Assembly (NCBI GenBank): GCA_003135635.1
Contig: PLCJ01000001.1
Span: 99,418 to 163,417 of the forward strand
Source: Candidatus Adlerbacteria bacterium
Lineage (GTDB): Bacteria > Patescibacteriota > Minisyncoccia > Phycocordibacterales > SBAW01
Direction of reading: 5' to 3'
Length of the DNA stretch: 64,000 bases
Under the pieces are notes generated by a model that did no database searches, was not told the origin of the DNA, and worked only from the letters and a program-made list of their open reading frames with translations. The position numbers and the translations under genes were made by a program. This document shows, piece after piece, positions 18,248 to 56,236 of the stretch (within the stretch, counting starts at the first letter, position 1; the number at the start of each line of letters is the position of its first letter).

Positions 18248-18292
18248 CTGAAGTTAGTCTTCATAAATGCTACACTAATGTAGCAAGAAAAC

Positions 18293-34322: not shown

Positions 34323-35684
34323 CTATTTTTCTACAATATCGTGCTCACCACGCTTGATATCAAAGCGGTCTTCGCTTCTATCGATATAAAGTGTAAGACC
34401 AAATGTTTCAAGAAGGAGTACGCCGATCTCCTGTGCGACGCGCCGCAAGGTTGGATGGACTGAAATACCTGAGCGCAGCTCCACAAGCCACGTGAGCCCG
34501 GGCAAATCGCCGGTCAGACGGCATGGCACGGAGTATCCCATAGGGATGTAGTATTGCCGATACACTGGCGCAATAGAGAGCTTGTTGAGGGCCGCGCGCT
34601 GTTTTTGTAGAACGCTCAAGGCTTTTTTCCGGAGCTCTTGGGGCATTTGATCGAGATACCATGGAGCAAATTCCCAAGAGTTAGTAAGAAGCGGCATACG
34701 CTGGGTCACAGCTCGATGTCGTTGAAGGTCGCGGAAGGAGCCAAAATCTAAAAAAAACAAGAAACGTATGCTCCCACACTCTGCGAGAAATCTCGGCAAC
34801 TCTGCTTTGATTGGACGATTGGATAGTATCGGTGCATATCTGGCAAGAAGATTTCTGTCTATACCATCACGCTCCACCCGAACGCCAGAGAAAAAGGAGA
34901 TAGGCTCGGAAGTGTTTTGAGTGTTGAGATCAAAGTAGTATGATTCCTTCATCCACTCAGAGACATACTGCTCCGTTGCTTCATAGCGTTTCTGTTTGAA
35001 GGAATTTGGATACATGGTGTTGAGCGCTTCTTCGATAGTGAGGGCTATGGCACGCACTTCATCAAGCGGATGATTTCGCAGGCGAAGCAAGTGATCAGCT
35101 GCATGTCGCAGAGTAGTGTGCCACGCGAGGTTTGTTGCCATACCTGCGGGTAAAAAGCTACGCATAATATCAAAAGCGCGCGCGTTAATTGCTTTTTTCC
35201 ACTTCTTTTCGTCTTCTTCCCCACGAGGATGACGGTCCATAAGCTCTTCTTTCATTGTCGCAAGTCCTTCGGTGTGAAAGGTACGCAATGATTCTGATAA
35301 TTCACTTGCAGATTCATCAGGACTTATAAACGGTTGCGTAGAAAAGTCGACATAACGTGTCGAAGATTCTTGCCCGTTATACAGTTGAGAATCTTGGATA
35401 GCTTTAGCGGCCAGCATGGAAACACCTTCGATAAAAACGGTTGCTGTGCCGCAATCGCCGATCGATTTATCGCCATAGCCTATATAGTAAGTATCCATGA
35501 ACTGCGCAGCGCCTTTTTGCGCAAGTTTCATAAGATGGGCATCTATTCCATGTACAGAGCGAGAATGTAATGCTTGAAGCATTGCTGCTGCCTCCGCAGT
35601 GATGAGTGCACCAGTATCAAGCACGACCACCTGACCACCTCCTTGTAGAGGTTGTCGTACGTGGCGAAGATCCTCTAAGTGCAT
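34323..35684 (-). CDS. thyX: ThyX-like FAD-dependent thymidylate synthase, double-length (453 aa) with motifs split across two halves
   Basis: C-terminal half carries ThyX RHR motif (FRDLQRHRAVTQR); N-terminal half carries S-x-RY motif (QESSTRY) in ThyX-like context but has DSQ where RHR is expected. Confidence 0.55.
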   Translation of the reverse strand: MHLEDLRHVRQPLQGGGQVVVLDTGALITAEAAAMLQALHSRSVHGIDAHLMKLAQKGAAQFMDTYYIGYGDKSIGDCGTATVFIEGVSMLAAKAIQDSQLYNGQESSTRYVDFSTQPFISPDESASELSESLRTFHTEGLATMKEELMDRHPRGEEDEKKWKKAINARAFDIMRSFLPAGMATNLAWHTTLRHAADHLLRLRNHPLDEVRAIALTIEEALNTMYPNSFKQKRYEATEQYVSEWMKESYYFDLNTQNTSEPISFFSGVRVERDGIDRNLLARYAPILSNRPIKAELPRFLAECGSIRFLFFLDFGSFRDLQRHRAVTQRMPLLTNSWEFAPWYLDQMPQELRKKALSVLQKQRAALNKLSIAPVYRQYYIPMGYSVPCRLTGDLPGLTWLVELRSGISVHPTLRRVAQEIGVLLLETFGLTLYIDRSEDRFDIKRGEHDIVEK

Positions 35685-43233: not shown

Positions 43234-44496
43234 ATGTACAATTTTGTAGAAATGCAAGACAAAGAAGTACTTCAGATTCTCACAGGGGAGGAAAAACGCG
43301 AAGCAGAAGGACTTGAACTTATTCCATCTGAGAACTACGTCTCGCAGGCTGTACGAGAGGCAAACGGTTCTATTTTCACTAACAAATATTCAGAAGGATA
43401 TCCTGGGAAACGATATTACGGCGGTCAAACATATACTGACCAGATTGAGATATTAGCGATAGAGCGTGCAAAAACATTATTTAGCTGTGGCTATGCGAAT
43501 GTGCAGCCATTGTCGGGAGCGAATGCAAATATCGCAACATACTTCGCTCTTCTTTTACCGGGCGACACGGTGCTTGGCATGGATCTCTCTCATGGGGGAC
43601 ATCTTACTCACGGTGCGCCAGTCACCTATATCACCAAATTTTTTAATTTTGTGCGCTATAAGATGAAAAATCCGGATACTGGTGAGATTGACTATGAGGA
43701 AATGCGCAAAGTCGCTCTTGAAGTGAAGCCAAAAATACTTCTTGCAGGGTTTTCGGCATACTCGCGTGAACTTGAGTATGACAAATTTGTCTCCATCGCG
43801 CGAGAGGTGGGAGCCTATGCGGTCATTGATATTGCCCATATTGCAGGCCTTATTGCGGGAGGGGTGGCAAAAAATCCATTTGATTACGGATTTGACATCA
43901 TGACTTCTACCACCCACAAGACGCTACGTGGTCCGCGTGGAGGTCTTATTCTCGTGCGTGAAAGCGAAGAGTTGGCAAAAAAAATAGACCGGGCTGTTTT
44001 TCCTGGACTTCAAGGAGGTCCTCATATGCATACTATTGCTGCAAAAGCGATCGCATTCGGCGAAGCAATGCAACCTTCTTTTAAAGTGTATACTGCACAG
44101 ATTTTAAAAAATGCCAAAGCAATGGAAACGGTTCTCCACGATCGCAAAGTACGTATGCTCGGTGGAGGTACCTCAAATCATCTTATTCTCGCAGACGTGC
44201 ACGGATCCCTCGGTGTTGGAGGCAGAGAAGCTGAAGAGATTCTCGATAGCGTTGGCATTACGCTCAATAAAAATATGATTGCAAATGACACGCGACCACC
44301 TCTGGACCCTTCTGGTATTCGCTTTGGTACTCCTGCAATCACCACTCGGGGCTTTACCGAGAAAGAAAGCGCACAAGTAGCGAATCTGCTACTTGATGGA
44401 ATTGCGCATCGCGGCGACAAAATAAAGCTTGACTCCATACGGCAAGAAATACGAAAGATGTGCATACAATTTCCCATACCCGACTCATTTGTATAA
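43234..44496 (+). CDS. glyA: Serine hydroxymethyltransferase
   Basis: SHMT N-terminus ELIPSENYVS, PLP-lysine motif TTHKTLRGPRGG. Confidence 0.9.
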   Translation: MYNFVEMQDKEVLQILTGEEKREAEGLELIPSENYVSQAVREANGSIFTNKYSEGYPGKRYYGGQTYTDQIEILAIERAKTLFSCGYANVQPLSGANANIATYFALLLPGDTVLGMDLSHGGHLTHGAPVTYITKFFNFVRYKMKNPDTGEIDYEEMRKVALEVKPKILLAGFSAYSRELEYDKFVSIAREVGAYAVIDIAHIAGLIAGGVAKNPFDYGFDIMTSTTHKTLRGPRGGLILVRESEELAKKIDRAVFPGLQGGPHMHTIAAKAIAFGEAMQPSFKVYTAQILKNAKAMETVLHDRKVRMLGGGTSNHLILADVHGSLGVGGREAEEILDSVGITLNKNMIANDTRPPLDPSGIRFGTPAITTRGFTEKESAQVANLLLDGIAHRGDKIKLDSIRQEIRKMCIQFPIPDSFV

Positions 44497-44560
44497 GACA
44501 AAAAATAGTACCTACAAGCAGCTCTTTCCTCAGCAGCACGTTAGCTGCTAGTGTAGATAT

Positions 44561-46243
44561 ATGATTCAGGAAAAGATTAAAGAAACAATCACACTCCTAT
44601 TGAGGGAAAAAGGTCTAGAAAACGTACCATTCACGGTTGAACGCCCGGCGAGCCTTGAGCATGGCGATTACGCGACAAATGTTGCACTTGCGGTGGCAAA
44701 AAGACTCAAAAAAAATTCTCACGAGATTGCTGAAATGCTGGCCACGCAACTTCACATAACGAAAGAATTTCAAAAAGTTGTGGTTGTGGCCCCGGGATTT
44801 ATAAACTTCTTCCTCTCCCGAGAGACGCTCCTGCAGAATATGATGCGGGCTGCAACAGATGAGTCATGGGGCAGAAACGATATATACCGAGAGAAAACTA
44901 TAGTGGTTGAATACACCGACCCCAATCCATTTAAAGAATTCCACATAGGCCATCTCATGAGCAACGCCATGGGAGAAAGTATCTCGCGGCTTTTGGAGTT
45001 ATCCAGTGCTCGGGTGGTGCGTGCAAACTACCAAGGAGACGTGGGACTGCATGTTGCAAAGTCGCTGTGGGCAATGCTCCACCATCCCATGAGAGAGGAT
45101 GATACAAAATCTCTTTCAGGAAGGGCTTCCTACTATGGCCGCATGTATGTTCTTGGAGAGCAAAAATATGCTGAGGATACAATCGCGCACAAAGAAATAG
45201 ATGTACTGAATGAAAAAATATATGAGAAATCTGACAAGGCGATACACACCTTGTATGCAGAAGGAAGGAAATGGAGCCTCGAGCATTTTGAAGAGCTCTA
45301 TCGAATTCTTGGCACGACATTTGATGTATATTTTTTCGAAAGTGAATCGGGCCCAAAAGGGATTGAAATTGTACGTGCCCACCCAGAGATGTTTGAAAAA
45401 AGTGATGGCGCGACTATTTTCCGGGCGGAGAAATATGGGCTCCATACGCGTGTTTTTATTAATTCCCTCGGGTTGCCTACCTATGAAGCGAAGGATCTTG
45501 GACTAGTGGAATTAAAGAGATCCGCTTATCCATTTGATACGTCTCTCACTATTACTGCAAATGAGCAAAACGAATACTTCAAAGTTGTGTTACAGGCAGC
45601 CGAGCTTATATTTCCTGAACTGAAGGGTAAACTGCTACATCGCTCCCACGGTATGCTGCGTTTTAGAGATGAAAAAATGTCCTCTCGCACGGGCAATGTC
45701 ATTACCGGCGAATCATTGCTCCGAACCCTACAAGAAAAGGCAAAAGAAAAAATGCAGGAGCGAAAGCTTATCAATGTCGAGGAAATTGCTCAACAAGTCG
45801 CGGTGGGTGCCATAAAGTATGCAGTGCTTAAGCAGCGAAGTGGACTTGATATCGTGTTTGATCCCCAAGCATCTCTCTCTTTTATCGGTGATTCTGGACC
45901 CTATCTCCAATATGCACACACTCGTACACTCTCGCTTATAGATCAGGCAAAAAAAGTAGGCATTACGGCACAAACGCAGCCAGCACCCACAACCCCATCT
46001 ACGCTGGAGCACCTTCTCATTCACTTTCCTGAAATAATTATTCGCTCAGCGCTTGAATATGAGCCTCACTATCTTACTACCTATCTCACTGAACTGGCTT
46101 CGGTATTTAGTTCCTGGTACGCCAGTGAGCGGGTTATCGGCGGATCCTACCCGTCCTATGGATTACTGCTGACGCAAGCAGTAGAGAGGACTCTGCGCTA
46201 CGGGCTTTTTGCACTCGGCATCCCTCAACCCAAAGAGATGTAG
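44561..46243 (+). CDS. argS: Arginyl-tRNA synthetase
   Basis: N-terminal Add-1 domain, class I HIGH (HIGH at FHIGHLMS), DALR anticodon-binding C-terminus. Confidence 0.85.
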   Translation: MIQEKIKETITLLLREKGLENVPFTVERPASLEHGDYATNVALAVAKRLKKNSHEIAEMLATQLHITKEFQKVVVVAPGFINFFLSRETLLQNMMRAATDESWGRNDIYREKTIVVEYTDPNPFKEFHIGHLMSNAMGESISRLLELSSARVVRANYQGDVGLHVAKSLWAMLHHPMREDDTKSLSGRASYYGRMYVLGEQKYAEDTIAHKEIDVLNEKIYEKSDKAIHTLYAEGRKWSLEHFEELYRILGTTFDVYFFESESGPKGIEIVRAHPEMFEKSDGATIFRAEKYGLHTRVFINSLGLPTYEAKDLGLVELKRSAYPFDTSLTITANEQNEYFKVVLQAAELIFPELKGKLLHRSHGMLRFRDEKMSSRTGNVITGESLLRTLQEKAKEKMQERKLINVEEIAQQVAVGAIKYAVLKQRSGLDIVFDPQASLSFIGDSGPYLQYAHTRTLSLIDQAKKVGITAQTQPAPTTPSTLEHLLIHFPEIIIRSALEYEPHYLTTYLTELASVFSSWYASERVIGGSYPSYGLLLTQAVERTLRYGLFALGIPQPKEM

Positions 46244-46277
46244 GGAAAAGTGTTGCTAATAGTGGTATATTTCGATT

Positions 46278-49200
46278 ATGGCGGATCAGGAAAAATCTCC
46301 GCTCGCTGAGCGGGAAGAGAAAATACTTAGATTTTGGAAAGAAAAAAAGATTTTTGAAAAAACACTCACTCAACCCGCTCCACGGGGTGAGTTTATTTTC
46401 TATGATGGGCCACCATTTGCCACAGGACTTCCCCATACCGGATCTCTTCTTTCTTCTATCATCAAAGACGTGATTCCTCGCTATAAGAGCATGCGGGGAT
46501 ACCGGGTACCCCGTCGCTGGGGCTGGGATTGCCACGGACTGCCGATTGAGGTGATGATCGAGAAAAAGCTTAATCTTAAAACAAAAAAAGATATCGAACG
46601 CATTGGCATTGATGTTTTCAATGAAGCGGCGCGTGCATCAGTTTTGGAATTTGCAGACGAATGGGAGCAGTATGTTGACCGCGTTGGCAGGTGGGTTGAT
46701 TTCAAAAACTCCTACAAAACGATGGACACTTCGTACATTGAAAGTGTGTGGTGGGCTCTCAAGCGGCTCAATGAAAAAGGATATCTATACGAAGGCAGGA
46801 AAGTATTGTTGTACTGTCCTCATTGCGAGACGCCACTTGCCAAGGCAGAGATCGCCATGGATAACACCTATAAAGATATTTCCGAGGAAGCGGTGACCGT
46901 GAAATTCAAAATAAAAAATCCTCGCGCTCATGATTTGCCGGAAAATACGTATCTTCTTGCATGGACCACTACTCCCTGGACGCTGGTCGGAAATGTCGCA
47001 CTTGCTGTCGGAAAAAATATCGCGTACGGACTCGTGGCAAAAGGTGATGAGCATTTCATACTTGCTCAAGATCGATTGCACACATACTTTAGCGATGCCA
47101 CTGCAACGATGCTCTCTGCAGAAAAACTCATCGGCATTTCATATGAACCACTCTACGTTCTTTCTGCGGTTGAAGCCCATGCCGGAAAGAAGCACGTGGT
47201 ACTGAGTGCAGACTTTGTGAATACTGAGGAAGGCACCGGCATCGTGCACACGGCAGTTATGTACGGTGAGGACGATTTTTTGCTTGGGCAGCAAGAAAAA
47301 TTACCCCTCGTACAACTCCTCAATTCAAACGGCTCTTATAACGAAAATGCACCCGTATTTTTGCAGGGACGCTATATAAAAGCAGCGGAAAAAGATATAA
47401 AGGATGATTTAGAAAAACGGGGACTTCTGTTTGAGCGCGCTCAACACACGCATTCATATCCTCATTGTTGGCGTTGTGACACCCCACTTATCTATAACGC
47501 CGTTGTGTCATGGTTTATTAATATACAAAAAGTGAAACAGCGAATGCTTTCCCAGAATGAGAAAATAACTTGGGTTCCCGGGCATCTCAAACACGGCCGA
47601 TTTAAAAAAATTGTTGAAAGTGCACCGGACTGGACCATTTCTCGCAACCGATTCTGGGCCTCGCCACTTCCTATCTGGAAGGAGAGAGGAGGCAGCAAGT
47701 TCATGGTCATAGGATCGCTTGAGGAACTACTAGCTAAAACAAAGAAATCAGGAAACCACTATTTTCTTATACGCCACGGTGAGGCTAAGAGTAATGTGGA
47801 AGATTTTTTAAACTCTGACAATAGTATTGAAAATCACCTTACACAAAAAGGGAGAGAAGCAGTGCACGAAAGCATAACTCGTTTGCAGCAGAAAGTCTCC
47901 ATTGATCTGGTCATCACTTCCCCGCTGACGCGTGCACAGGAAACTGCCGTAATTGCAAAAGAAATGTTTGGACTTGCGGACTCTGCGGTGATAACAGATG
48001 AGAGACTTCAAGAGCGCGTATTTTCTATTTATAATGGCAACCCACGAGCACAGTGGCAGGCGCGCGATCCGTATACTGAGGAAGGAGTGGAGGACCTCAT
48101 GCAGATGCGAAGAAGGATGGGCGGATTTCTTTTTGATATAGAAGACCAATATACCAATAGCAATATTCTTATCGTGACACACGGTGATCCTGCCTGGGTT
48201 ATGAACCAAGTGGCAGGGAGAACTCCGTATAGTAGAGATTCCACTTTCGAAAGAAAAGAAGGGTATTTAGATACTGCACAGTGGTGTGTACTTTATTTCA
48301 CTCCCTATCCGCATACGAAAGACTTTGTACTTGATCTTCATCGCCCTTATGTTGATAGAGTGACGCTTGTAGATAGTGCGGGAGGGGAATATATACGTAT
48401 TCCTGAAGTCGTTGACGTGTGGGTTGAGTCTGGGGCAATGCCGTTTGCCTCAGCGCAGTATCCACGCAACAAATCCGCGGTGAATCCCAGACGCTTTTTT
48501 GGACTTATGCCCAGGGGGTATCCGGCTGATTTCATTGCCGAATATATTGCGCAGACGCGCACATGGTTTTACTACATGCACGCAATGGGCATACTCCTTT
48601 TTAATCACCCGTCATTTCGCACCGTAGTTTCAACGGGTACGGTACTTGCCGCAGATGGGACAAAAATATCCAAATCCAAAGGCAACTATACTGATCCCTT
48701 GCGTCTTATGGAGCACTTTGGGGCGGATGCGCTACGTTTTCATCTCATGGGAAGTGTCGTGATGCAGGGAGAAGATCTCCAGTTTCGCGATGAAGATGTA
48801 CGTGAAGCGCATAACCGTGTGCTTGGGATACTCTGGAACAGCTACAATTTCTTTGAACTGTATAAAGATAAATACAAAGGAGAAGCACAGGCTAGACCCA
48901 GCACACATATTCTTGATCGGTGGATTGAGGCTCGTCTGCAACAACTTGTGGGGGAGATGACTGCAGCACTAGATTCCTATGATACGCCCCGTGCATGTCG
49001 TTTGCTGCGGGAATATATTGAGGATTATTCGACGTGGTATCTCAGGCGTTCTCGTGGCCGAGTGAAAAGTAGTGATGCTATAGATGTGCAATGTGCACTT
49101 CACACGCAGCGCAAGGTGCTGCTCATATTTTCAAAACTTATTGCACCACTAATGCCGTTTATGGCTGAAAGCATTTATCAAGAAATAGGAGGCCAGGAAG

Positions 49201-49730
49201 AAAGTGTACACCTTACCTCGTGGCCCTCAGTTGAGGGAGTCGTGTCTGATCTTCATTTGATACAAGAGATGAAAGAAGTACGCCGTGTTGTTTCTTTGGC
49301 ACTGCAAGCGCGTGAGCGGGCTGGCATTAAAATCCGTCAGCCGCTTGCAACGCTCAAAGTAAAACAACTTTCTGGCGATATAGGGCTCCGTGGTCTCATT
49401 GCCGATGAGCTCAATGTTAAGGAAGTTATTGAAGATCCATCACTCAAAGAGGAGCTTGCACTTGATGTGGTCCTCACCCCTGCACTTCGTGAAGAAGGAT
49501 TACTTCGCGATTGCGTGCGCCAGGTGCAAGATTTGCGTAAGAAAGAAGGATTCACTATATATGATCGACCCACCCTTTTGGTGACCACCAATGAAGAAGG
49601 TAAAGAATTTTTTAAGCGCATACGCTCCACACTTATCGCAGAGACGGGAGTAACAGACCTTGTTATTACTACCAGTGGTGAACTTGAGGAGAATCTACCA
49701 TTTCCCCACAGCTTCAGCCTTATGCATTAA
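46278..49730 (+). CDS. ileS: Isoleucyl-tRNA synthetase carrying an inserted histidine-phosphatase (PGAM-like) domain
   Basis: Class I motifs P..TG.PH.GS and KISKSKGN, WCISR-like (WTISRNRFWASP); residues ~490-680 contain RHGE (LIRHGEAKSN), SPLTRAQETA and IVTHGD motifs of the histidine phosphatase superfamily. Confidence 0.85.
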   Translation: MADQEKSPLAEREEKILRFWKEKKIFEKTLTQPAPRGEFIFYDGPPFATGLPHTGSLLSSIIKDVIPRYKSMRGYRVPRRWGWDCHGLPIEVMIEKKLNLKTKKDIERIGIDVFNEAARASVLEFADEWEQYVDRVGRWVDFKNSYKTMDTSYIESVWWALKRLNEKGYLYEGRKVLLYCPHCETPLAKAEIAMDNTYKDISEEAVTVKFKIKNPRAHDLPENTYLLAWTTTPWTLVGNVALAVGKNIAYGLVAKGDEHFILAQDRLHTYFSDATATMLSAEKLIGISYEPLYVLSAVEAHAGKKHVVLSADFVNTEEGTGIVHTAVMYGEDDFLLGQQEKLPLVQLLNSNGSYNENAPVFLQGRYIKAAEKDIKDDLEKRGLLFERAQHTHSYPHCWRCDTPLIYNAVVSWFINIQKVKQRMLSQNEKITWVPGHLKHGRFKKIVESAPDWTISRNRFWASPLPIWKERGGSKFMVIGSLEELLAKTKKSGNHYFLIRHGEAKSNVEDFLNSDNSIENHLTQKGREAVHESITRLQQKVSIDLVITSPLTRAQETAVIAKEMFGLADSAVITDERLQERVFSIYNGNPRAQWQARDPYTEEGVEDLMQMRRRMGGFLFDIEDQYTNSNILIVTHGDPAWVMNQVAGRTPYSRDSTFERKEGYLDTAQWCVLYFTPYPHTKDFVLDLHRPYVDRVTLVDSAGGEYIRIPEVVDVWVESGAMPFASAQYPRNKSAVNPRRFFGLMPRGYPADFIAEYIAQTRTWFYYMHAMGILLFNHPSFRTVVSTGTVLAADGTKISKSKGNYTDPLRLMEHFGADALRFHLMGSVVMQGEDLQFRDEDVREAHNRVLGILWNSYNFFELYKDKYKGEAQARPSTHILDRWIEARLQQLVGEMTAALDSYDTPRACRLLREYIEDYSTWYLRRSRGRVKSSDAIDVQCALHTQRKVLLIFSKLIAPLMPFMAESIYQEIGGQEESVHLTSWPSVEGVVSDLHLIQEMKEVRRVVSLALQARERAGIKIRQPLATLKVKQLSGDIGLRGLIADELNVKEVIEDPSLKEELALDVVLTPALREEGLLRDCVRQVQDLRKKEGFTIYDRPTLLVTTNEEGKEFFKRIRSTLIAETGVTDLVITTSGELEENLPFPHSFSLMH
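47750..48300 (+). other. Histidine phosphatase (phosphoglycerate-mutase-like) domain embedded in ileS reading frame
   Basis: RHG catalytic motif (47772-47780), SPLxRAxET, second His in VTHGD (~48183); in-frame with IleRS on both sides. Confidence 0.7.
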
Positions 49731-49732
49731 AT

Positions 49733-50311
49733 ATGTATAAGATTAGTGTTACCGACGGTATTGTGCTCAAAAAAAGCTTCCGGGGAGAAGCCAATGTGGC
49801 AGTAAGTATTCTCACCCGCGAACTGGGGCTCCTGAGGGCAGTGGTGCGAAGTGCGCGCAGGGAAAAATCAAAACTACGCTACGGAATCGAACCGCTAACC
49901 CAAGGACGCTTCTCCTTTGTGCGCGGGCAGCGGGAGTGGCGCCTGGTTGGAATGGAAGGGGTATCGCGACTCTTTCCCACGCTCTCTTTCCCACACACTA
50001 GTGCTGCTGGTCGGATAGTAAAATTGTTACTGCGGCTCATACAGGGGCAAGAACCCACCCCTCTCCTGTACAAGACGCTCCAGGAAGGCCTCATCTCGAT
50101 TTCCTGTGTACAGGAGAAGGATCTGCAAAATACAGAGTGTGTGCTTGTGCTGCGCATCCTCGCGCACCTGGGATACGTCGCGCACGTCCCAGAACTTGCC
50201 CCTTTTATGGAAAATGATTTCTTCTCCGAGGAGCTTGCCGCTGCGGCCGTTCATTCTCGTTCGCTCCTTATTCGTACTATTAATCAGTCGCTCAAAGCCA
50301 GTGAGCTCTAA
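49733..50311 (+). CDS. recO: DNA repair protein RecO (short form)
   Basis: N-terminal OB-fold pattern GIVLKKSFRGEANVAVSILTRELGLLRAVVRSARREKSKL...L.P typical of RecO. Confidence 0.65.
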   Translation: MYKISVTDGIVLKKSFRGEANVAVSILTRELGLLRAVVRSARREKSKLRYGIEPLTQGRFSFVRGQREWRLVGMEGVSRLFPTLSFPHTSAAGRIVKLLLRLIQGQEPTPLLYKTLQEGLISISCVQEKDLQNTECVLVLRILAHLGYVAHVPELAPFMENDFFSEELAAAAVHSRSLLIRTINQSLKASEL

Positions 50312-50329
50312 ATACGATATACTTTCTCA

Positions 50330-52282
50330 ATGGCCGTAGAAGAAAAAGATGCAGTTGAGAAACTTAAAAAAGAGCTTTACTCTCGCAAGGAGAGACCCAC
50401 GATTGGAAAAGACATACGCACTCCTCTTTCCTCCTCAAATGTAGATACGCCACGTGCCTGGGAACAAGAAGAGACCTCACCAGAGAAAATAAAGCCAGCA
50501 CGTCCTCCGCTGGCTGAGTTTATGAATACACCCAAGCGAGGTATGCCCTTTGCGGCAAAGTTCCTCCTTATTTCAACTCTTTTTTTTATTGCGGCTGCGG
50601 GAGTAGCGGCATACTTTTTTTTCGGTGGAGCGAATTTCATTTCACCACAAAATATTGATCTTCAAGTAATAGCGCCTTCTCTCATAGATGGCGGAAAAGA
50701 AGCAACGCTCCAAGTTATCATCGATAATCGAAATAAAGCTGCGCTCACGATGGTGAACATGCTCGTTAATTATCCTGATGGTACTCGGAGTGTCGCCACT
50801 TCTTCAGGACCGCTTCAGCATGATAGTCAAACCATCGGCACTATCGCCTCGGGAGGGCAGGTGAAGCGTACCATTAATGCGATTTTCTACGGACAGGAAG
50901 GTACTCAAGAGACCGTCAACGTTACCCTTCAATACAGTATCCCCGGGTCAAGTGCAATATTTACTAAAGAAGGGCAAGCAAATTTTCTTATCGGTTCATC
51001 ACCAGTTTCAGTCTCCGTGAACGCTCCAAACCAAACTATTTCCGGCCAACCATTTGCTATGGATGTAACCGTGCAAGCAAATGGAATAGTGCCAGTACAA
51101 GATGTACTCCTTCAGGCGCAGTACCCATTCGGGTTTTCTCTCTCCTCATCAACACCGGCCGCACAGGCAGGAGGTACCCTGTGGCGACTGGGAACATTGC
51201 AGCCGGGGAGTGCCCAGATCATTCATATTGAAGGATCTCTTCAGGGCCAAAATGGGGATGAAGGTGTATTTCACTTCTTATCTGGCTCTGACTCAAACCC
51301 TACTGATACACAAATTGCCGTACCGTTTTTATCCATTCCCACTACCATTACGATAACGCAGCCTTTTATCACTGCCTCTTTTGCGCTCAATGGACAATCG
51401 GGCCAGACCATTTCCATCGCCCCCGGGTCAGCAGTGCAAGGAGTTATAACATGGCAAAATAATCTCCCCACCGCGATATCAAATGCATCTTTTCAGCTAT
51501 CAATAAATGGCACGCCCCTTGATCCCACTTCGGTAGAAGCTCCCAACGGGTTTTATCAGTCCTCAGACTCAAGCATTATTTGGGACTCACAAAACGATCC
51601 CGCACTTGCATCTATTCCTGCGGGCGCCAGTGGCACACTCCAGTTTTCCTTCGCAACCATACGGCCCAGTGCTACTGCTCCCTATCTCAATCCAACGATG
51701 ATGCTTAGTTTGACGCTGAGCGGTTCACGCAATGATGAGGCCGGTGGTCCTCAAGTTGTCTCTTCCGTTGCGATGGCTCAAGTGAATATTGCTTCATTGG
51801 TAGCCCTCGGCGTACAAGCACTTCATTTTACCGGCCCATTTTCAGATGGGGGTCCTATGCCGCCAGTTCCTGGACAGAACACCACTTACACTATTGAATG
51901 GACCATAACAAATTCTTCTAATTCTCTCGCAAACACTCAAGTATCAACCACACTCCCGCCATATGTACAATTTGTTGCTGCGCAGCCAGGCAGCGGCATC
52001 ACGTATACTGCCCCTAGTCGAACAGTCACCTGGAATCTCGGCGATGTGGCGGCAGCGGCGGGGTATGGAAATACGCCACCACAGGCAGCTTTCCAAGTAG
52101 CACTGCTTCCCAGTGTTTCGCAAGTGGGCCAATCGCCGGCGCTCACTGGAGAGACGACTTTGTCAGGGAGTGATCGTTTTGCACAAGTGGGAGTGCAAGC
52201 CTCAGCCAATTCTCCCACGATCCAACTTACGGGCGACACCGGATATAGTGCTGCTATGGGTGCTGTTGCTGCGGGGCAGTGA
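50330..52282 (+). CDS. Large membrane-anchored surface protein with repeated beta-rich (Ig/CARDB-like) domains
   Basis: Cytoplasmic N-terminus, single TM (FLLISTLFFIAAAGVAAYFFF), ~550-aa ectodomain of low-complexity S/T/Q/G-rich repeats. Confidence 0.45.
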   Translation: MAVEEKDAVEKLKKELYSRKERPTIGKDIRTPLSSSNVDTPRAWEQEETSPEKIKPARPPLAEFMNTPKRGMPFAAKFLLISTLFFIAAAGVAAYFFFGGANFISPQNIDLQVIAPSLIDGGKEATLQVIIDNRNKAALTMVNMLVNYPDGTRSVATSSGPLQHDSQTIGTIASGGQVKRTINAIFYGQEGTQETVNVTLQYSIPGSSAIFTKEGQANFLIGSSPVSVSVNAPNQTISGQPFAMDVTVQANGIVPVQDVLLQAQYPFGFSLSSSTPAAQAGGTLWRLGTLQPGSAQIIHIEGSLQGQNGDEGVFHFLSGSDSNPTDTQIAVPFLSIPTTITITQPFITASFALNGQSGQTISIAPGSAVQGVITWQNNLPTAISNASFQLSINGTPLDPTSVEAPNGFYQSSDSSIIWDSQNDPALASIPAGASGTLQFSFATIRPSATAPYLNPTMMLSLTLSGSRNDEAGGPQVVSSVAMAQVNIASLVALGVQALHFTGPFSDGGPMPPVPGQNTTYTIEWTITNSSNSLANTQVSTTLPPYVQFVAAQPGSGITYTAPSRTVTWNLGDVAAAAGYGNTPPQAAFQVALLPSVSQVGQSPALTGETTLSGSDRFAQVGVQASANSPTIQLTGDTGYSAAMGAVAAGQ

Positions 52283-52298
52283 TTTTTCCAAAAGTAAA

Positions 52299-53690
52299 AT
52301 GCAGAGTATGATTGCCGCTATGGATAGTACGGTGATGGAGAAACTCGTGGCGCTGTGTAAACGGCGCGGATTTATCTACCAGGGATCAGAAATTTACGGT
52401 GGCCTCGCTGGCACATGGGATTACGGACCCTTGGGTCTTGCGCTCAAGAAAAATATTGAAAACTTGTGGTGGCGCCAATTCGTCGATTCGCGCGACGACA
52501 TGTATGGCATCGACTCGGCGATCTTGATGAACCCGCGCGTGTGGGAGGCGAGCGGTCACGTCGGCGGTTTTAATGACCCGCTTGTTGAGGATAAAAAAAC
52601 AAAAAAGCGCTATCGCGCGGACCACGTGCTTGAAGAGGCGGATATTGATTCTTCCGGTATGACACTTGCTCAAATGGGAGACATCATAGCGGAGAAAAAA
52701 ATAAAAAGTCCTGACGGCAACGAACTCTCCGCACCTCAACAATTTAATATGATGTTCAAGACATCGATTGGGTCAGCGGGCGGGAGTGATACGGTGGTGT
52801 ATTTAAGACCTGAAACGGCGCAAGGCATGTTTATCAATTTCAAAAATATCATTGACACCTATCATCCTAAACTTCCCTTCGGTATAGCGCAGATCGGTCG
52901 CTCCTTCCGCAACGAGATAGCGCCGCGCGATTTTATCTTCCGCGTGCGAGAACTTGAGATTATGGAATTTGAGTATTTCATTAAGGAAGAAACGTGGAAT
53001 GAGCAGTTTGAGTATTGGCGCACTCAGATGCAGGCATGGTTTCGCTTGATTGGATTTGCGCCGGAGGATATACGGGAGGTGGAGATTCCAGAGGGGCAAC
53101 GAGCACATTACTCGAAGCGGACGATGGATTTCCATTTTCGTTATCTGCACAAATTCGATGAAATAGGAGGTCTCGCATATCGCACCGACTTTGATCTCAA
53201 AAGTCATATGCAGCACACCGGGATTGATTTGCAATACCTCGACCCAAATACTAGCGAAAAATTTATACCCCATGTTCTTGAACCCACTTTCGGGTTAGGT
53301 CGGCATGTACTTGCTATACTCACTAAAGCATACAGCGAAGATGAACTTGGAGGAGAAAGCAGGGCGGTATTGAGGCTTCCACCAAATCTCGCACCCGTGA
53401 AGGCAGCTGTATTTCCTCTCCTTAAAAATAAACCTGAGTTGGTTGCGAAGGCACGAGAGATCTATGTGACGCTGAAAAAAGAAATCCCGCAAATCATGTG
53501 GGATGACAACGGTAATATCGGCAAGCGCTATCGTCGGCAAGACGAGATAGGCACTCCATGGTGCATTACTATCGACTTTGACACACTAAAAAACGCTACC
53601 GTGACACTACGAGAGCGTGATACCGGAGAGCAGAAGCGCATTTCTACTGCAGAGCTCTCAGCACTTCTAGCCGAGAGAATTCAGGTGTAA
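52299..53690 (+). CDS. glyQS: Glycyl-tRNA synthetase (alpha2 dimeric type)
   Basis: Class II motifs; GFIYQGSEIYGGLAGTWDYGPLG characteristic of glyS-type GlyRS; start set at first ATG after upstream stop (listed ORF overlaps upstream gene). Confidence 0.85.
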   Translation: MQSMIAAMDSTVMEKLVALCKRRGFIYQGSEIYGGLAGTWDYGPLGLALKKNIENLWWRQFVDSRDDMYGIDSAILMNPRVWEASGHVGGFNDPLVEDKKTKKRYRADHVLEEADIDSSGMTLAQMGDIIAEKKIKSPDGNELSAPQQFNMMFKTSIGSAGGSDTVVYLRPETAQGMFINFKNIIDTYHPKLPFGIAQIGRSFRNEIAPRDFIFRVRELEIMEFEYFIKEETWNEQFEYWRTQMQAWFRLIGFAPEDIREVEIPEGQRAHYSKRTMDFHFRYLHKFDEIGGLAYRTDFDLKSHMQHTGIDLQYLDPNTSEKFIPHVLEPTFGLGRHVLAILTKAYSEDELGGESRAVLRLPPNLAPVKAAVFPLLKNKPELVAKAREIYVTLKKEIPQIMWDDNGNIGKRYRRQDEIGTPWCITIDFDTLKNATVTLRERDTGEQKRISTAELSALLAERIQV

Positions 53691-53691
53691 C

Positions 53692-54777
53692 ATGCAAAAG
53701 ATGACTTCCCACGATATCCATGTACGTATTAGTTCTGGGAGTATTATTACTACCCTACTTTTTGTGCTGCTCGCTGCACTTTTATGGTTTTTACGTGACC
53801 TGGTCCTCACGCTGCTTTCTGCGGTAGTGATAGCCTCAGCAATGGAACCGGCGGTGCGGTATTTTTCCAAAAAGGGTATATCACGCATTATTAGCGTTAT
53901 ATTCATTTACCTTGTCTTAGCAGTGGCTCTTTTGAGCATTTTATTCTTTTTTGCCCCACCCCTTCTTAATGACACGGCAACCTTACTGCGTGAGCTGCCA
54001 CAGACATTTGGCTCCTTTAATGTAGCTGACATAACACATGGGTTGTTGCCACTGCAAAGTGCGAGTACCGCTCTTTCCTCAGCAGATTTTCTCAGTAGCA
54101 TCTCTCAGAGTATTGCTCAGTCAACGGGTGGAGCATTTACGACCCTCTCGGTATTTTTTGGTGGCCTCACATCCTTTGCACTTATCATTCTTTTCTCTTT
54201 CTATTTTTCTGTGCAAGAGACAGGTGTTGATGATTTCTTGCGCATCGTGACACCTATAAAAGAGCAAGCATACGTACTCCATTTGTGGAAACGCTCGCAA
54301 GACAAGATTGGCAGATGGATGCAAGGACAACTGGTGCTCGCTACTCTTGTAGGGGTTCTGTTGTATCTTGGACTCCTTATTTTGAATGTGAATTATGCGC
54401 TGCTTCTGGCAGTTGTTGCAGGCATATTTGAACTTCTTCCGATTTTTGGGCAGTTCCTTGCAGCTATTCCCGCAATTATTGTGGGGTTTGCTACTGGCGG
54501 TGTTACTACCGGTTTGTTAGTGACGGGGCTCTATCTTATTGTGCAGCAGTTTGAAGCGAATCTTATTTATCCCGTGGTAGTCAAGAAAGTTGTCGGAGTG
54601 CCGCCCCTGTTGGTTATTCTTGCCATGCTTGTTGGTTTTAAACTCTTCGGATTTTTGGGAGCCTTACTAGCTGTTCCCATCGCCGCCGCCATACAAGAAT
54701 TTGTGAGCGACATTGATCGGGAAAAAAAGCTTGCGCTTGCGCGTGCGGGTCTTGCGTCAGATGGTGAAGCGAAGTAG
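53692..54777 (+). CDS. AI-2E family transporter (UPF0118/PerM-like)
   Basis: 8-TM topology with AI-2E conserved segments (LLLAVVAGIFELLPIFGQFLAAIPAI). Confidence 0.7.
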   Translation: MQKMTSHDIHVRISSGSIITTLLFVLLAALLWFLRDLVLTLLSAVVIASAMEPAVRYFSKKGISRIISVIFIYLVLAVALLSILFFFAPPLLNDTATLLRELPQTFGSFNVADITHGLLPLQSASTALSSADFLSSISQSIAQSTGGAFTTLSVFFGGLTSFALIILFSFYFSVQETGVDDFLRIVTPIKEQAYVLHLWKRSQDKIGRWMQGQLVLATLVGVLLYLGLLILNVNYALLLAVVAGIFELLPIFGQFLAAIPAIIVGFATGGVTTGLLVTGLYLIVQQFEANLIYPVVVKKVVGVPPLLVILAMLVGFKLFGFLGALLAVPIAAAIQEFVSDIDREKKLALARAGLASDGEAK

Positions 54778-54787
54778 CCTCAAGGGA

Positions 54788-56236
54788 ATGTCCACTAAAA
54801 AAAGTTTCTACCTTACCACTACGCTGCCCTACGTCAACGACGATCCGCATATTGGATTTGTTCTTGAGATCATACAAGCTGATATTCAAGCTCGCTACCA
54901 TGCTCTTCAAGGAGAAGAAGTGTTTTTCAATACTGGTACAGATGAACATGGTCTAAAGATATATCGCAAAGCACTGGAGGCAAAAAAAGACCCGCAAACA
55001 TATGCCGATATATATGCTGAGAAATTCAAAGATCTGAAATCCATTCTCAATTTATATCCCGCATTGCATTTTATTCGCACAACCGATGCAAGACATATAG
55101 CCGCAGCACAAGAATTTTGGCGCCGATGTCTTGCCAGCGGCGATATTTATAAAAAGAACTACCGTATCAAATATTGTGTGAGCTGTGAGCTTGAAAAAAG
55201 TGAGTCCGAGCTCATCCATGGGCATTGTTCTATACATCCCAATATTGAACTTGAACTGATTGATGAAGAAAATTATTTTTTTCGCTTCTCACGCTACCAA
55301 TCTGCACTTACCCAGCTCTATACAGAACACGCAGATTTTGTTATACCCGCCTCTCGTTTTAATGAGATCAAAAAATTTGTTCAGCAAGGACTTGAGGATT
55401 TCAGTATTTCACGTGTAAAAGAAAAAATGCCCTGGGGTATAGCAATTCCTGATGATGATGAGCAGATTATGTATGTTTGGTTTGACGCTCTTATCAATTA
55501 TGTCTCTACGCTTGGGTGGCCCGTGGAGGAAAAAAAATTCCAGCAATTCTGGGGAAATAAGGAAGGACCACAGGGTATTCAGATGGCGGGTAAAGATCAA
55601 ATACGCCAACAAGCTGCAATCTGGCAGGCGATGCTTCTCTCCGCTGGATTGCCGACATCCAAACAAATAGTCATCCATGGATTCATTACTCTAGAAGGAC
55701 AGAAGATGAGCAAATCAGTCGGGAATGTGGTGAGTCCTTACCCACTAGTGAAAGAATATGGCACCGATGCTTTGCGCTATTATCTTTCGCGGCACGTCTC
55801 TCCATTTGAAGATAGCGATTTTGGGATGGAGAAATTTAAGGAGGCATATAATGCCAATCTTGCCAACGGGCTTGGTAATCTTGTCGCGCGCATCATGCAA
55901 CTCGCTCAGACACATTTACCAAAAGGGACACATCCAGAGGTGAGCGGATTTCCGCAGGAATATACTGAGGCACTTAAGAAGTTCGAGATCAACCGCGCTG
56001 CAGATTATATATGGTCGCGTATTCAATTGCTCGACCAAAAGATAACCGACACAAAGCCTTTTAAGGTCATAGAAGTAAATTCTGAGGCAGGAAAAAAAAT
56101 AATCTTTGATCTCACCCAAGAGCTCTATTTTATTGGCCGTATGCTCAACCCTTTTATGCCAGGTACGAGCGAGAAAATAAAAAAGGCAGTTATTGAAAAC
56201 AAAAAACCGGAGACTCTTTTTCCTCGTAAGATATAG
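54788..56236 (+). CDS. metG: Methionyl-tRNA synthetase, catalytic core only (no C-terminal tRNA-binding domain)
   Basis: PYVNDDPHIGF (HIGH-class), zinc knuckle CVSCE...HGHCSIHP, KMSKS; 482 aa. Confidence 0.8.
   Translation: MSTKKSFYLTTTLPYVNDDPHIGFVLEIIQADIQARYHALQGEEVFFNTGTDEHGLKIYRKALEAKKDPQTYADIYAEKFKDLKSILNLYPALHFIRTTDARHIAAAQEFWRRCLASGDIYKKNYRIKYCVSCELEKSESELIHGHCSIHPNIELELIDEENYFFRFSRYQSALTQLYTEHADFVIPASRFNEIKKFVQQGLEDFSISRVKEKMPWGIAIPDDDEQIMYVWFDALINYVSTLGWPVEEKKFQQFWGNKEGPQGIQMAGKDQIRQQAAIWQAMLLSAGLPTSKQIVIHGFITLEGQKMSKSVGNVVSPYPLVKEYGTDALRYYLSRHVSPFEDSDFGMEKFKEAYNANLANGLGNLVARIMQLAQTHLPKGTHPEVSGFPQEYTEALKKFEINRAADYIWSRIQLLDQKITDTKPFKVIEVNSEAGKKIIFDLTQELYFIGRMLNPFMPGTSEKIKKAVIENKKPETLFPRKI

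What the first reader, a model, noticed from the sequence alone, without database searches (positions are those of the whole stretch)
46278..49730. Isoleucyl-tRNA synthetase with a histidine-phosphatase (PGAM-like) domain inserted into its catalytic core
The ileS reading frame is 1150 aa, about 200 aa longer than usual. Between the conserved WxISR-like block (WTISRNRFWASPLPIW) and the downstream DVW(V/F)ESG block it contains an uninterrupted segment carrying the three hallmark motifs of the histidine phosphatase superfamily. These are RHGE (LIRHGEAKSN), SPLTRAQETA and (I/V)THGD. No intein signatures are present (no Cys/Ser-1, no C-terminal HN), and the frame is continuous, so this is a genuine domain insertion rather than a mobile intein or an assembly join. 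A phosphatase inside an aaRS editing/CP region has no function I can assign from established knowledge. Candidates are hydrolysis of a phosphorylated nucleotide, a regulatory phosphatase, or a repurposed editing activity.
Basis: partly seen in the sequence, partly recalled or inferred. Interest (0 to 1): 0.85.

Follow-up and report, generated by a model that had tools for sequence, protein, structure and literature searches.

The report
Phosphatase module inside isoleucyl-tRNA synthetase
An essential translation enzyme (isoleucyl-tRNA synthetase) of a Patescibacteria/CPR bacterium really does carry an intact histidine-phosphatase domain spliced into a surface loop of its catalytic body; the same module recurs in hundreds of IleRS and ValRS of this radiation (at several sites, in up to four copies, or as the gene next to ileS), and I found no published description or known function.

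Summary
ORF 46278-49730 encodes a 1150-aa type-2 IleRS (TIGR00392 814 bits). A 197-aa histidine-phosphatase module (Pfam His_Phos_1, E=1.8e-23) replaces a 5-residue loop of the CP3 subdomain. It is not an intein or an assembly join: all 120 closest homologues have it, and an exhaustive profile search gives 342 cluster representatives at E<=1e-30. The catalytic pentad R499-H500-R552-E579-H635 is intact in 257 of 269 modules. The fold is PhoE/CobC-like (TM 0.76 to 1H2E), not a true mutase. New here: the module occupies three IleRS sites and occurs in up to three IleRS copies. Close free-standing homologues lie directly beside an insert-free ileS in 5 of 6 informative cases. ValRS of Gracilibacteria/Peregrinibacteria carries related modules at the homologous CP3 site (71 of 120 relatives, up to four copies). 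The substrate is unknown. My best reading (about 0.4) is an active small-molecule phosphomonoesterase selected for physical coupling to the two branched-chain class-Ia synthetases. The main rival (about 0.3) is a housekeeping phosphatase or PGM merely riding in a permissive loop. No literature was found. It is a new variant of a known kind; interest about 0.7.

The parts
46278..49730 (+). ileS: complete 1150-aa type-2 isoleucyl-tRNA synthetase ORF with the embedded phosphatase module
   Evidence: AF2 model pLDDT 87.8, pTM 0.79
46278..47744 (+). N-terminal IleRS part (aa 1-489): first half of the Rossmann fold, CP core, CP1 editing domain, CP2, CP2-3 linker and first half of CP3
   Evidence: tRNA-synt_1 aa 16-491; aligns to 1ILE residues 12-482
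46434..46445 (+). HIGH signature in the variant form H-T-G-S (aa 53-56)
   Evidence: the clade consensus is HxGS; it does not correlate with the phosphatase
46962..46982 (+). CP1 editing-site Thr-rich peptide WTTTPWT (aa 229-235), invariant in the clade; the GTGIVH motif lies at 47232-47249
47628..47657 (+). CP2-3 linker DWTISRNRFW (aa 451-460); in yeast IleRS this segment lines the tRNA CCA-end / reveromycin pocket
   Evidence: PMC7955072
47745..48335 (+). Histidine-phosphatase module (aa 490-686) nested in the CP3 loop; the Pfam His_Phos_1 hit covers aa 496-658 (47763-48251)
   Evidence: module-only model pLDDT 93.9, TM 0.76 to PhoE 1H2E
47772..47780 (+). RHG motif: R499, nucleophile H500, G501
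   Evidence: H500 is present in all 269 modules scored
47931..47933 (+). R552 (SPLTRAQETA), phosphate-pocket arginine
48012..48014 (+). E579 (DERLQE), general acid
48180..48182 (+). H635 (VTHGD), distal catalytic histidine
48297..48335 (+). Conserved C-terminal linker FTPYPHTKDFVLD (F674 and P678 are >=90% conserved) that leads back into CP3 at DLHRP; absent from the free-standing forms
48336..49727 (+). C-terminal IleRS part (aa 687-1150): rest of CP3, second half of the Rossmann fold (DVWVESG at 48414-48434), KISKS (48663-48677), Anticodon_1 (48915-49346), DUF5915 C-terminal domain
48456..48524 (+). Loop aa 727-749, empty here; in relatives P0175 and P0188 the equivalent loop holds a phosphatase module (site 2)
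   Evidence: low-pLDDT loop in the model
48867..48908 (+). Loop aa 864-877 before the anticodon-binding domain, empty here; in P0175, P0228, P0233 and P0188 it holds a module (site 3)
44561..46243 (+). argS, 34 nt upstream of ileS; in split-form relatives the free-standing phosphatase gene lies between argS and ileS
49733..50311 (+). recO-like gene immediately downstream; part of the synteny shared with the split-form loci

Best explanation
The window encodes a functional type-2 IleRS with a complete, catalytically competent PhoE/CobC-type histidine phosphomonoesterase nested in the CP3 loop. SHOWN: the insertion is real, old and widespread in Patescibacteria. The catalytic residues are under purifying selection while the rest of the module drifts. 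The same family is tied to IleRS in four arrangements: CP3 insert, two further insertion sites, 2-3 copies, and a separate gene abutting ileS. A related set occupies the homologous CP3 loop of ValRS. INFERRED: selection favours physical coupling of this phosphatase activity to the two branched-chain, editing class-Ia synthetases. The module probably hydrolyses a small phosphomonoester connected with their activation/editing cycle. It sits beside the nucleotide-binding half of the Rossmann fold and just after the linker that lines the CCA pocket. My leading, unproven candidate is a nucleotide-type 5'-phosphate such as AMP. AMP is the product of activation and of the futile editing cycles for which IleRS and ValRS are known (established knowledge). 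CobC, among the nearest families, acts on a nucleotide-like 5'-phosphate. The phosphatase chemistry would be the standard one: phospho-His500 intermediate, E579 as general acid, and R499/R552/H635 forming the phosphate pocket.
For: Real and conserved: all 120 best homologues carry PF00300, and 342 representatives score E<=1e-30 with the module profile. Catalytic integrity: the pentad is intact in 257/269 modules, including 14/14 tandem and 5/5 alternative-site copies, although module identity is only about 40% against about 69% for the N-terminal core. Fold and family: PhoE, iPSP1, HFP, GpgP and CobC are the best sequence and structure matches, all small-molecule enzymes. Some relatives' modules reach the CobC equivalog range. 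Coupling to the synthetase: three verified IleRS sites, and P0188 has all three occupied. Free-standing close homologues are adjacent to ileS in 5 of 6 informative contigs. None of 70 insert-free ileS loci of other lineages has such a gene within about 6 kb. 71 of 120 ValRS relatives carry 1-4 modules, mostly at the homologous CP3 site. Defined geometry: junction pLDDT is >=90 and the linkers are conserved. The host looks functional: KMSKS, the editing motifs and the anticodon domain are conserved.
Against: No substrate is identified, so AMP is a guess. Turning AMP into adenosine looks wasteful for a purine auxotroph. Nothing explains why other synthetases would not need the same activity. Multiple sites and up to four copies argue against a precisely positioned active site. 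Copies within one protein are only 26-37% identical, which suggests different specificities and fits a metabolic role. One close free-standing relative (P0218) sits with a ROK sugar kinase, a HAD hydrolase and GlmS, not with ileS. 26 of the 83 ValRS modules lack the full pentad; nearly all of these have lost the general-acid Glu and some also the distal His. Gene order argS-ileS-recO is conserved anyway, so adjacency alone is weak evidence.
Confidence: 0.4

Rival explanations
1. Hitch-hiking housekeeping enzyme. The module is an ordinary metabolic phosphatase, possibly the 'missing' phosphoglycerate mutase or a phosphoserine/sugar-phosphate phosphatase of these reduced genomes. Its gene lay next to ileS and became nested in permissive loops. 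It gains constitutive, stoichiometric expression but has no mechanistic role in aminoacylation.
For: The nearest homologues are all metabolic small-molecule phosphatases. P0218 lies in a sugar-kinase/GlmS context. Multiple sites, copy-number variation and old divergent copies fit consolidation of several activities. Degenerate copies in ValRS look like decaying passengers. The modules are acidic and so not nucleic-acid-like. P0222 shows IleRS also tolerating an unrelated transposase-like insert. PGM is reported as apparently absent in several shallow Parcubacteria clades (PMC7304191). Synteny around ileS is conserved for unrelated genes too.
Against: Among the 150 best module hits, every multidomain host is IleRS or ValRS. 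The homologous CP3 loop is used in two paralogous synthetases. A simple end-to-end fusion to the equally adjacent argS is never seen. The dPGM equivalog models are far below cutoff (72.5 vs 225; 28-31 vs 316-366), and mutases align only over the N-terminal ~100 positions.
Confidence: 0.3
2. Macromolecule-directed phosphatase. The module dephosphorylates the synthetase itself, as protection against HipA-type kinases that (from established knowledge) target class-I synthetases near the KMSKS loop. Alternatively it removes a 3'-(pyro)phosphate from the tRNA CCA end so the tRNA can be charged.
For: CP3 follows the linker that lines the CCA pocket (PMC7955072). The three insertion sites surround the nucleotide-binding half of the Rossmann fold and the KMSKS region. 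The superfamily includes protein phosphatases (PGAM5, Sts, SixA; established knowledge). A phosphoserine phosphatase (iPSP1) is the second-best structural match.
Against: No protein phosphatase appears among the top 50 fold matches. The modules are on average acidic, and the window's own has net charge -8, which is unfavourable for tRNA. One copy would suffice for a cis substrate. No partner kinase or toxin is seen in the neighbourhoods. Nothing explains restriction to Ile/Val.
Confidence: 0.12
3. Regulatory switch. Domain insertion couples the conformational cycle of IleRS (Ile, ATP or tRNA binding) to the activity of the phosphatase, or the reverse. Branched-chain amino-acid or charging status would then control a metabolic phosphatase in an organism with few regulators.
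For: The catalytic RHG lies only about 9 residues from the N-terminal junction. The linkers are short, conserved and confidently modelled. Nested-domain architectures commonly transmit allostery (general knowledge).
Against: Free-standing forms exist and keep all catalytic residues. Several different sites and tandem arrays are hard to reconcile with one tuned allosteric path.
Confidence: 0.1
4. Non-catalytic passenger. The module is a structural decoration or remnant of a selfish insertion whose enzymatic function no longer matters.
For: Some ValRS copies have lost the Glu and/or the distal His. CP3 varies in topology between IleRS from different organisms (PMC7191050).
Against: In the IleRS family 95% of modules keep the whole pentad at about 40% overall identity. 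The window's own module is fully intact. There are no mobility signatures.
Confidence: 0.05
5. Artefact: a chimeric assembly, a frameshifted pair of genes, or an intein.
For: None found.
Against: The frame is continuous and composition is flat. The architecture is identical in hundreds of independent assemblies, including contigs of 0.4-0.7 Mb. There are no Hint/intein hits or splice-junction residues.
Confidence: 0.01

Closest known systems
Type-2 ('eukaryote-like', IleRS2) isoleucyl-tRNA synthetase, e.g. T. thermophilus 1ILE and P. megaterium IleRS2 8C8U/8C8V
   Same: Full-length homology on both sides of the module (676 bits to 1ILE). The best fold matches have TM 0.78-0.88 normalised to the target. 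KMSKS, CP1 editing motifs, Anticodon_1 and DUF5915 are present.
   Different: About 195 extra residues replace the 5-residue CP3 loop (1ILE 482-488). HIGH reads HTGS. The CP3 zinc-binding cysteines of 1ILE are absent.
PhoE/YhfR broad-specificity phosphatase (B. stearothermophilus, 1EBB/1H2E)
   Same: Best sequence match (E=1e-24, aligned over profile positions 7-171) and best structural match (TM 0.76, rmsd 2.6 A). The catalytic residues are the same.
   Different: PhoE is a free-standing enzyme, whereas this one is nested in a synthetase. Identity is only 25%. The window's cap region is 8 residues shorter than the clade consensus.
CobC alpha-ribazole-5'-phosphate phosphatase (TIGR03162; 6NRU, 6E4B)
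   Same: Same branch of the superfamily. Modules of some relatives score around the equivalog cutoff (P0201 164.7 vs 162.9). The substrate is a nucleotide-like 5'-phosphate.
   Different: The window's module scores only 39 bits. From general knowledge, these organisms are not expected to synthesise cobalamin.
Cofactor-dependent phosphoglycerate mutase (dPGM, GpmA; archaeal NF038349)
   Same: Same superfamily and catalytic core; NF038349 is the best NCBIfam phosphatase-type hit (72.5 bits).
   Different: It is far below every mutase cutoff. Bacterial and eukaryotic dPGMs align only over the N-terminal ~100 positions.
IleRS with embedded GNAT domain (NCBIfam NF040702 'ileS_w_GNAT')
   Same: A curated precedent for an IleRS that carries a foreign enzymatic domain.
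   Different: The guest domain and, apparently, its position are different. The window scores 312 bits against a cutoff of 1999, so it is not a member.
Bifunctional RNase H / CobC-type acid phosphatase (Rv2228c type, NF005567)
   Same: A precedent for a branch-1 histidine phosphatase fused to a nucleic-acid enzyme; weak hit to the phosphatase half (51 bits).
   Different: That is an end-to-end fusion, not a nested insertion, and the partner enzyme differs. The score is far below the cutoff of 326.

Membership tests
Isoleucyl-tRNA synthetase (TIGR00392, type 2) | Equivalog model above the curated cutoff | tested here: met
   813.7 bits vs 621.4
Isoleucyl-tRNA synthetase (TIGR00392, type 2) | Class-I signature HIGH | tested here: inconclusive
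   Reads HTGS; the first His and the Gly are kept, the fourth His is replaced by Ser. The clade consensus is HxGS. The effect on catalysis is unknown.
Isoleucyl-tRNA synthetase (TIGR00392, type 2) | Class-I signature KMSKS | tested here: met
   KISKS at aa 796-800; K796, S798, K799 and S800 are invariant in A1
Isoleucyl-tRNA synthetase (TIGR00392, type 2) | CP1 editing-site motifs (Thr-rich peptide, GTGxVH) | tested here: met
   WTTTPWT and GTGIVH are invariant in the clade
Isoleucyl-tRNA synthetase (TIGR00392, type 2) | Overall fold of solved IleRS, including anticodon-binding and C-terminal domains | tested here: met
   Foldseek E=5.5e-82 to 8C8V; TMt 0.78-0.88 to IleRS structures
Isoleucyl-tRNA synthetase (TIGR00392, type 2) | Ile-specific aminoacylation of tRNA-Ile | not testable with these tools
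   Requires biochemistry
Histidine phosphatase superfamily, branch 1 (PF00300) | Pfam model above the gathering score | tested here: met
   83.7 bits vs 21.7, E=1.8e-23
Histidine phosphatase superfamily, branch 1 (PF00300) | RHG nucleophile motif, second Arg, general-acid Glu, distal His | tested here: met
   R499-H500-G501, R552, E579 and H635 are present; the pentad is intact in 257/269 family modules
Histidine phosphatase superfamily, branch 1 (PF00300) | Alpha/beta fold of the superfamily | tested here: met
   Module model pLDDT 93.9; TM 0.76 / rmsd 2.6 A to PhoE 1H2E
Histidine phosphatase superfamily, branch 1 (PF00300) | Phosphomonoesterase activity via a phospho-histidine intermediate | not testable with these tools
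   Requires an enzyme assay
Cofactor-dependent phosphoglycerate mutase (dPGM) | Equivalog models above cutoff | tested here: not met
   NF038349 72.5 vs 225; PRK14120 31.2 vs 366; PRK01295 28.8 vs 316; GpmB 28.9 vs 261
Cofactor-dependent phosphoglycerate mutase (dPGM) | Full-length similarity including the mutase-specific second half | tested here: not met
   Solved dPGMs align only to profile positions ~7-109, whereas PhoE, PSP and CobC align over 7-171
CobC alpha-ribazole phosphatase (TIGR03162) | Equivalog model above cutoff | tested here: not met
   39 bits vs 162.9 for the window protein; some distant relatives' modules come near the cutoff
SixA phosphohistidine phosphatase (TIGR00249) | Equivalog model above cutoff | tested here: not met
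   37.9 bits vs 74.5, N-terminal 70 residues only
Intein | Hint-domain homology; N-terminal Cys/Ser and C-terminal His-Asn followed by Cys/Ser/Thr | tested here: not met
   No Hint/intein Pfam hit. The junctions read KTK|KSGNHYF and DFVLD|LHRP.
IleRS with GNAT domain (NF040702) | Exception model above cutoff | tested here: not met
   312 bits vs 1999

The most novel reading that the evidence does not exclude
IleRS and ValRS of Patescibacteria have acquired a second (or, counting editing, third) catalytic centre. A histidine phosphatase works in cis with the synthetase on a nucleotide, on the tRNA 3' end or on the enzyme itself. This would be a previously unknown accessory activity of aminoacyl-tRNA synthetases, selected repeatedly at several loops and in several copies, and specific to the two branched-chain editing enzymes.
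Probability: 0.35. Interest if true: 0.88.

Novelty: new variant of a known kind. Interest (0 to 1): 0.72.

Why it matters
Aminoacyl-tRNA synthetases are among the best-studied enzymes, and their accessory domains are usually RNA-binding, editing or (in eukaryotes) signalling modules. As far as I could find, a conserved and apparently active phosphomonoesterase nested inside the catalytic body of IleRS has not been described. The same applies to ValRS, with modules at several sites and in up to four copies, across a large part of the Candidate Phyla Radiation. If the phosphatase is mechanistically coupled to aminoacylation or editing, it reveals a new auxiliary reaction in translation and a lineage-specific vulnerability. 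If it is a hidden housekeeping enzyme, it may explain apparent metabolic gaps in CPR reconstructions, such as the reported absence of PGM in Parcubacteria clades. It would also show that pathway annotation in these genomes misses enzymes buried inside other genes. Either outcome is directly testable with one recombinant protein.

Tried and rejected
(1) Correlation between the degenerate HIGH motif and the phosphatase: rejected. Fused and split forms show HYGH, GxHH, HxGS, HIGL and HYAT, and insert-free IleRS vary similarly.
(2) Recent intragenic duplication as the origin of alternative-site and tandem copies: the first NJ tree suggested it, but bootstraps gave 0-4% support and copies in one protein are only 26-37% identical. 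Retracted.
(3) Direction of evolution (split to fused, or the reverse): unresolved. An all-free-standing clade was never recovered, but the backbone is unsupported.
(4) Word-indexed search with the insert alone: nearly blind (9 hits), so I used an exhaustive profile search instead.
(5) Geometry of the phosphatase pocket relative to the synthetic site: not possible, because model coordinates are not exposed.
(6) The afdb50 fold library was unavailable.
(7) A per-lineage PGM presence/absence table to test the hidden-PGM idea is not in the supplements of PMC7304191.
(8) Mobility signatures (flanking repeats) and local promoters/terminators: nothing above chance.
(9) Basic charge as a hint of tRNA binding: the modules are acidic on average.
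(10) Literature: eight searches found no description of a synthetase with a histidine-phosphatase domain.
(11) ARAGORN's 'tRNA-Stop' is most likely tRNA-Lys(UUU) drawn in the wrong register.

Full report
OBSERVATION. Pfam finds tRNA-synt_1 in two stretches, Anticodon_1, the IleRS C-terminal DUF5915, and His_Phos_1 (PF00300) at aa 496-658 between the two synthetase stretches. The His_Phos_1 match has E=1.8e-23 and 83.7 bits against a gathering score of 21.7. NCBIfam's ileS equivalog scores 813.7 bits (cutoff 621.4), also split in two. The quoted motifs are present and translate as stated: RHG 499-501, SPLTRAQETA with R552, DERLQE with E579, and VTHGD with H635. GC content is flat across the junctions. 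No repeats flank the segment, and promoter/terminator matches are at chance level.

WHERE IT SITS. The host is a type-2 IleRS. The best solved relatives are T. thermophilus 1ILE (676 bits) and P. megaterium IleRS2. The full-length AlphaFold model (pLDDT 87.8, pTM 0.79) matches these and the yeast enzyme. In the alignment to 1ILE, window residues up to 490 match residues up to 482 and window 685 onward matches 488 onward. About 195 residues therefore replace a 5-residue loop. By the nomenclature of the C. albicans and yeast structures this loop lies in the CP3 subdomain. CP3 immediately follows the 'CP2-3 linker' DWxxSRNRxW, which lines the tRNA CCA-end/reveromycin pocket (PMC7191050, PMC7955072). 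The spacing from that linker to DxWxESG is 252 aa here. It is 57-66 aa in most of about 50 insert-free type-2 IleRS, with a range of 57-85. The junctions are modelled with pLDDT >=90, and the linkers (SGN...; F-x-P-x-P-H-N...LDLHRP) are conserved.

NOT AN ARTEFACT, NOT AN INTEIN. All 120 closest homologues carry the same Pfam architecture. They are 56-63% identical and come from Paceibacterota, Kaiserbacteria, Adlerbacteria and 'Parcubacteria' MAGs, on contigs up to 0.7 Mb. An exhaustive HMM search with a 26-sequence profile of the module alone, against 1.84 billion cluster representatives, gave 342 proteins at E<=1e-30. There is no Hint/intein homology and there are no splice-junction residues.

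WHAT THE MODULE IS. The profile's best solved relatives are the broad-specificity phosphatase PhoE (1EBB/1H2E, E=1e-24, aligned over nearly the full length), the dPGM-like phosphoserine phosphatase iPSP1, a riboflavin-pathway phosphatase, CobC and TIGAR. Genuine mutases align only over the first ~100 positions. The module-only model (pLDDT 93.9, pTM 0.91) superposes best on PhoE (TM 0.76, rmsd 2.6 A). The matches that follow are all small-molecule phosphatases, with no protein phosphatase in the top 50. All mutase, CobC and SixA equivalog models are far below cutoff for the window protein. Across 269 modules the catalytic pentad R499-H500-R552-E579-H635 is intact in 257, and most exceptions are E->D. 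Overall module identity to the window averages about 40%, against about 69% for the N-terminal core. The enzymatic machinery is therefore what selection preserves. The host also looks functional: KMSKS, the CP1 editing motifs and the anticodon domain are conserved. HIGH reads HTGS, and the clade consensus is HxGS.

THE WIDER PATTERN.
(i) Distribution. Magasanikiibacteriota, Saccharibacteria and all non-CPR lineages sampled lack it.
(ii) Sites and copies. Motif order shows three IleRS sites: the CP3 loop (W[P]DQK, the majority), the loop between DxWxESG and DQTRGWF, and the loop after KMSKS before the anticodon domain. P0175 has the CP3 site empty and the other two filled. P0188 has all three filled. 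Several proteins have two modules in tandem in CP3. The window's equivalents of sites 2 and 3 (aa 727-749 and 864-877) are low-confidence surface loops.
(iii) Split forms. Complete free-standing proteins of 187-205 aa score almost as well as diverged inserts. In 5 of 6 informative contigs they lie directly beside an insert-free ileS, usually argS-phosphatase-ileS with abutting or overlapping ORFs. The synteny is the same as in the window (argS, ileS, recO, DUF11 protein, class-II aaRS). A further contig shows argS upstream. One member (P0218) instead sits with a ROK kinase, a HAD hydrolase and GlmS. None of 70 insert-free ileS loci of other lineages has such a gene within about 6 kb.
(iv) ValRS. 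The four-module protein P0131 is a ValRS (valS 411/381 bits vs ileS 199). Among its 120 best relatives, 71 carry 1-4 modules. These are Gracilibacteria and Peregrinibacteria on contigs up to 1.37 Mb. Most modules lie at the homologous CP3 position and some lie upstream of the DWCISRQ motif. ValRS modules are about 40% identical to the tandem-type IleRS modules. Only 57 of 83 keep the full pentad.

EVOLUTION. Crude NJ trees intersperse fused, split and insert-free forms for both module and host. Bootstraps do not support same-protein copies as sisters, and such copies are only 26-37% identical. They are therefore old paralogues or separate acquisitions. Whether the operon form is ancestral remains open.

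MECHANISM. Shown: this is an intact PhoE/CobC-like phosphomonoesterase, rigidly nested in CP3 of a functional-looking IleRS. The family is linked to IleRS and ValRS in several independent arrangements. Inferred: selection favours physical coupling of the activity to these two synthetases. The homologous loop is used in two paralogous enzymes. Among the best 150 hits no multidomain host other than IleRS or ValRS appears. A trivial end-to-end fusion with the equally adjacent argS is never seen. I commit, at about 0.4, to a small-molecule phosphomonoesterase acting on a compound tied to the activation/editing cycle. A nucleotide 5'-phosphate such as AMP is the leading but unproven candidate. The main rival (about 0.3) is a housekeeping phosphatase, or the PGM reported as apparently missing from several Parcubacteria clades (PMC7304191), hitch-hiking in permissive loops. 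That rival is supported by the metabolic nature of all close homologues, the sugar-kinase context of P0218, the divergent multi-copy arrays, the decaying ValRS copies and the acidic charge of the modules. Lesser rivals are a protein- or tRNA-directed phosphatase, an allosteric switch, and a non-catalytic passenger.

COMPARISON AND NOVELTY. The host passes the membership tests for IleRS, with the HIGH variant left open. The guest passes those for branch-1 histidine phosphatases and fails those for dPGM, CobC, SixA and inteins. Two precedents exist for foreign enzymatic domains joined to related enzymes: NCBIfam's IleRS-with-GNAT family and the RNase H/CobC bifunctional protein. Neither matches this protein. 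The sequences are public and annotated only as 'isoleucyl-tRNA synthetase' or 'class I tRNA ligase family protein'. Eight full-text searches found no description of the architecture. I rate it a new variant of a known kind: a synthetase with an accessory domain, here a nested catalytic phosphatase. Its function is open, and interest is about 0.7.

LIMITS. Genome-wide co-occurrence could not be computed. The phylogenies are distance-based.

Noticed in passing
window 18175-18248 (+): ARAGORN calls a 'tRNA-Stop' with anticodon TTA, and Rfam gives it the best tRNA score in the window (71.2 bits). The anticodon loop reads CUUUUAA, the canonical tRNA-Lys(UUU) loop, if the anticodon stem starts one base earlier with a G27.A43 mismatch. 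It is most likely tRNA-Lys, not a suppressor.
   Followed up: partly
window 46434-46445 (IleRS aa 53-56): The class-I HIGH signature reads HTGS. In the 120 closest homologues it is mostly HxGS (HHGS 45, HTGS 24, HSGS 20), and only 4 have HYGH. Loss of the fourth histidine in an apparently essential IleRS is unusual. It does not track with the phosphatase.
   Followed up: partly
L002, L005, L006, L087-L089 (IleRS N-termini): Several Patescibacteria IleRS, both fused and split forms, have the swapped signature G-x-H-H instead of H-x-G-H. PDB entry titles link HIGH-motif changes in IleRS2 to mupirocin hyper-resistance.
   Followed up: no
window 47658-47744 and 48336-48413 (CP3 halves): The four CP3 zinc-binding cysteines seen in T. 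thermophilus IleRS, and retained in fused IleRS of L003 and L004 (CxxC...CxxC), are absent from the window's CP3 (KERGGSK... / VDSAGGEY).
   Followed up: no
window 48060-48110 (module aa ~595-611): The window's own module has an 8-residue deletion in the cap region relative to the clade consensus (RDPY--------TEEGVED). Two relatives (P0076, P0084) lack about 30 residues there. The cap normally shapes the substrate pocket.
   Followed up: no
L010 5866-10281 (Peribacteria IleRS, 1472-aa open frame; same type as P0201): Two phosphatase modules lie in tandem inside CP3, separated by a remnant copy of the downstream 'DLHK...' segment. The two positions form separate, old clades across species (bootstrap 98 and 55).
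   Followed up: partly
P0131, P0287-P0404 (ValRS of Gracilibacteria/Peregrinibacteria): Valyl-tRNA synthetases carry 1-4 related phosphatase modules, mostly at the homologous CP3 site. About 30% of these modules have lost the general-acid Glu and/or the distal His.
   Followed up: partly
P0222 aa 326-472: A fused IleRS also contains a segment matching REP-associated tyrosine transposase (NF047646, 81.3 bits vs cutoff 80), inserted within the region aligned to the N-terminal IleRS part. This is another foreign insertion in the same host family.
   Followed up: no
L091 1547-2164 (P0218): This is the one close free-standing relative not next to ileS. Its ORF overlaps the end of a ROK-family sugar kinase gene and lies near a HAD hydrolase and GlmS, which hints at a sugar-phosphate role for at least some family members.
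   Followed up: no
L081, L084, L087 (between ileS and recO): Split-form loci have a small ORF of 100-154 aa with no Pfam hit between ileS and recO. It is absent from the window, where recO starts 3 nt after the ileS stop.
   Followed up: no
window 4128-6773 and 43234-56236: The window spans the dnaA-dnaN region. It also holds a housekeeping cluster rich in synthetases: glyA, argS, ileS, recO, a DUF11 protein, a class-II aaRS at 52113-53690 and metG at 54713-56236. The listed starts of the class-II aaRS and metG ORFs overlap the upstream genes by about 170 and 65 nt, so their true starts are probably further downstream.
   Followed up: no
window 34326-35684 (-): A 453-aa protein whose only Pfam hit is a ThyX (Thy1) domain at aa 45-226, roughly twice the usual ThyX length. 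It lies in a dcd-tmk-dut nucleotide-metabolism cluster.
   Followed up: no
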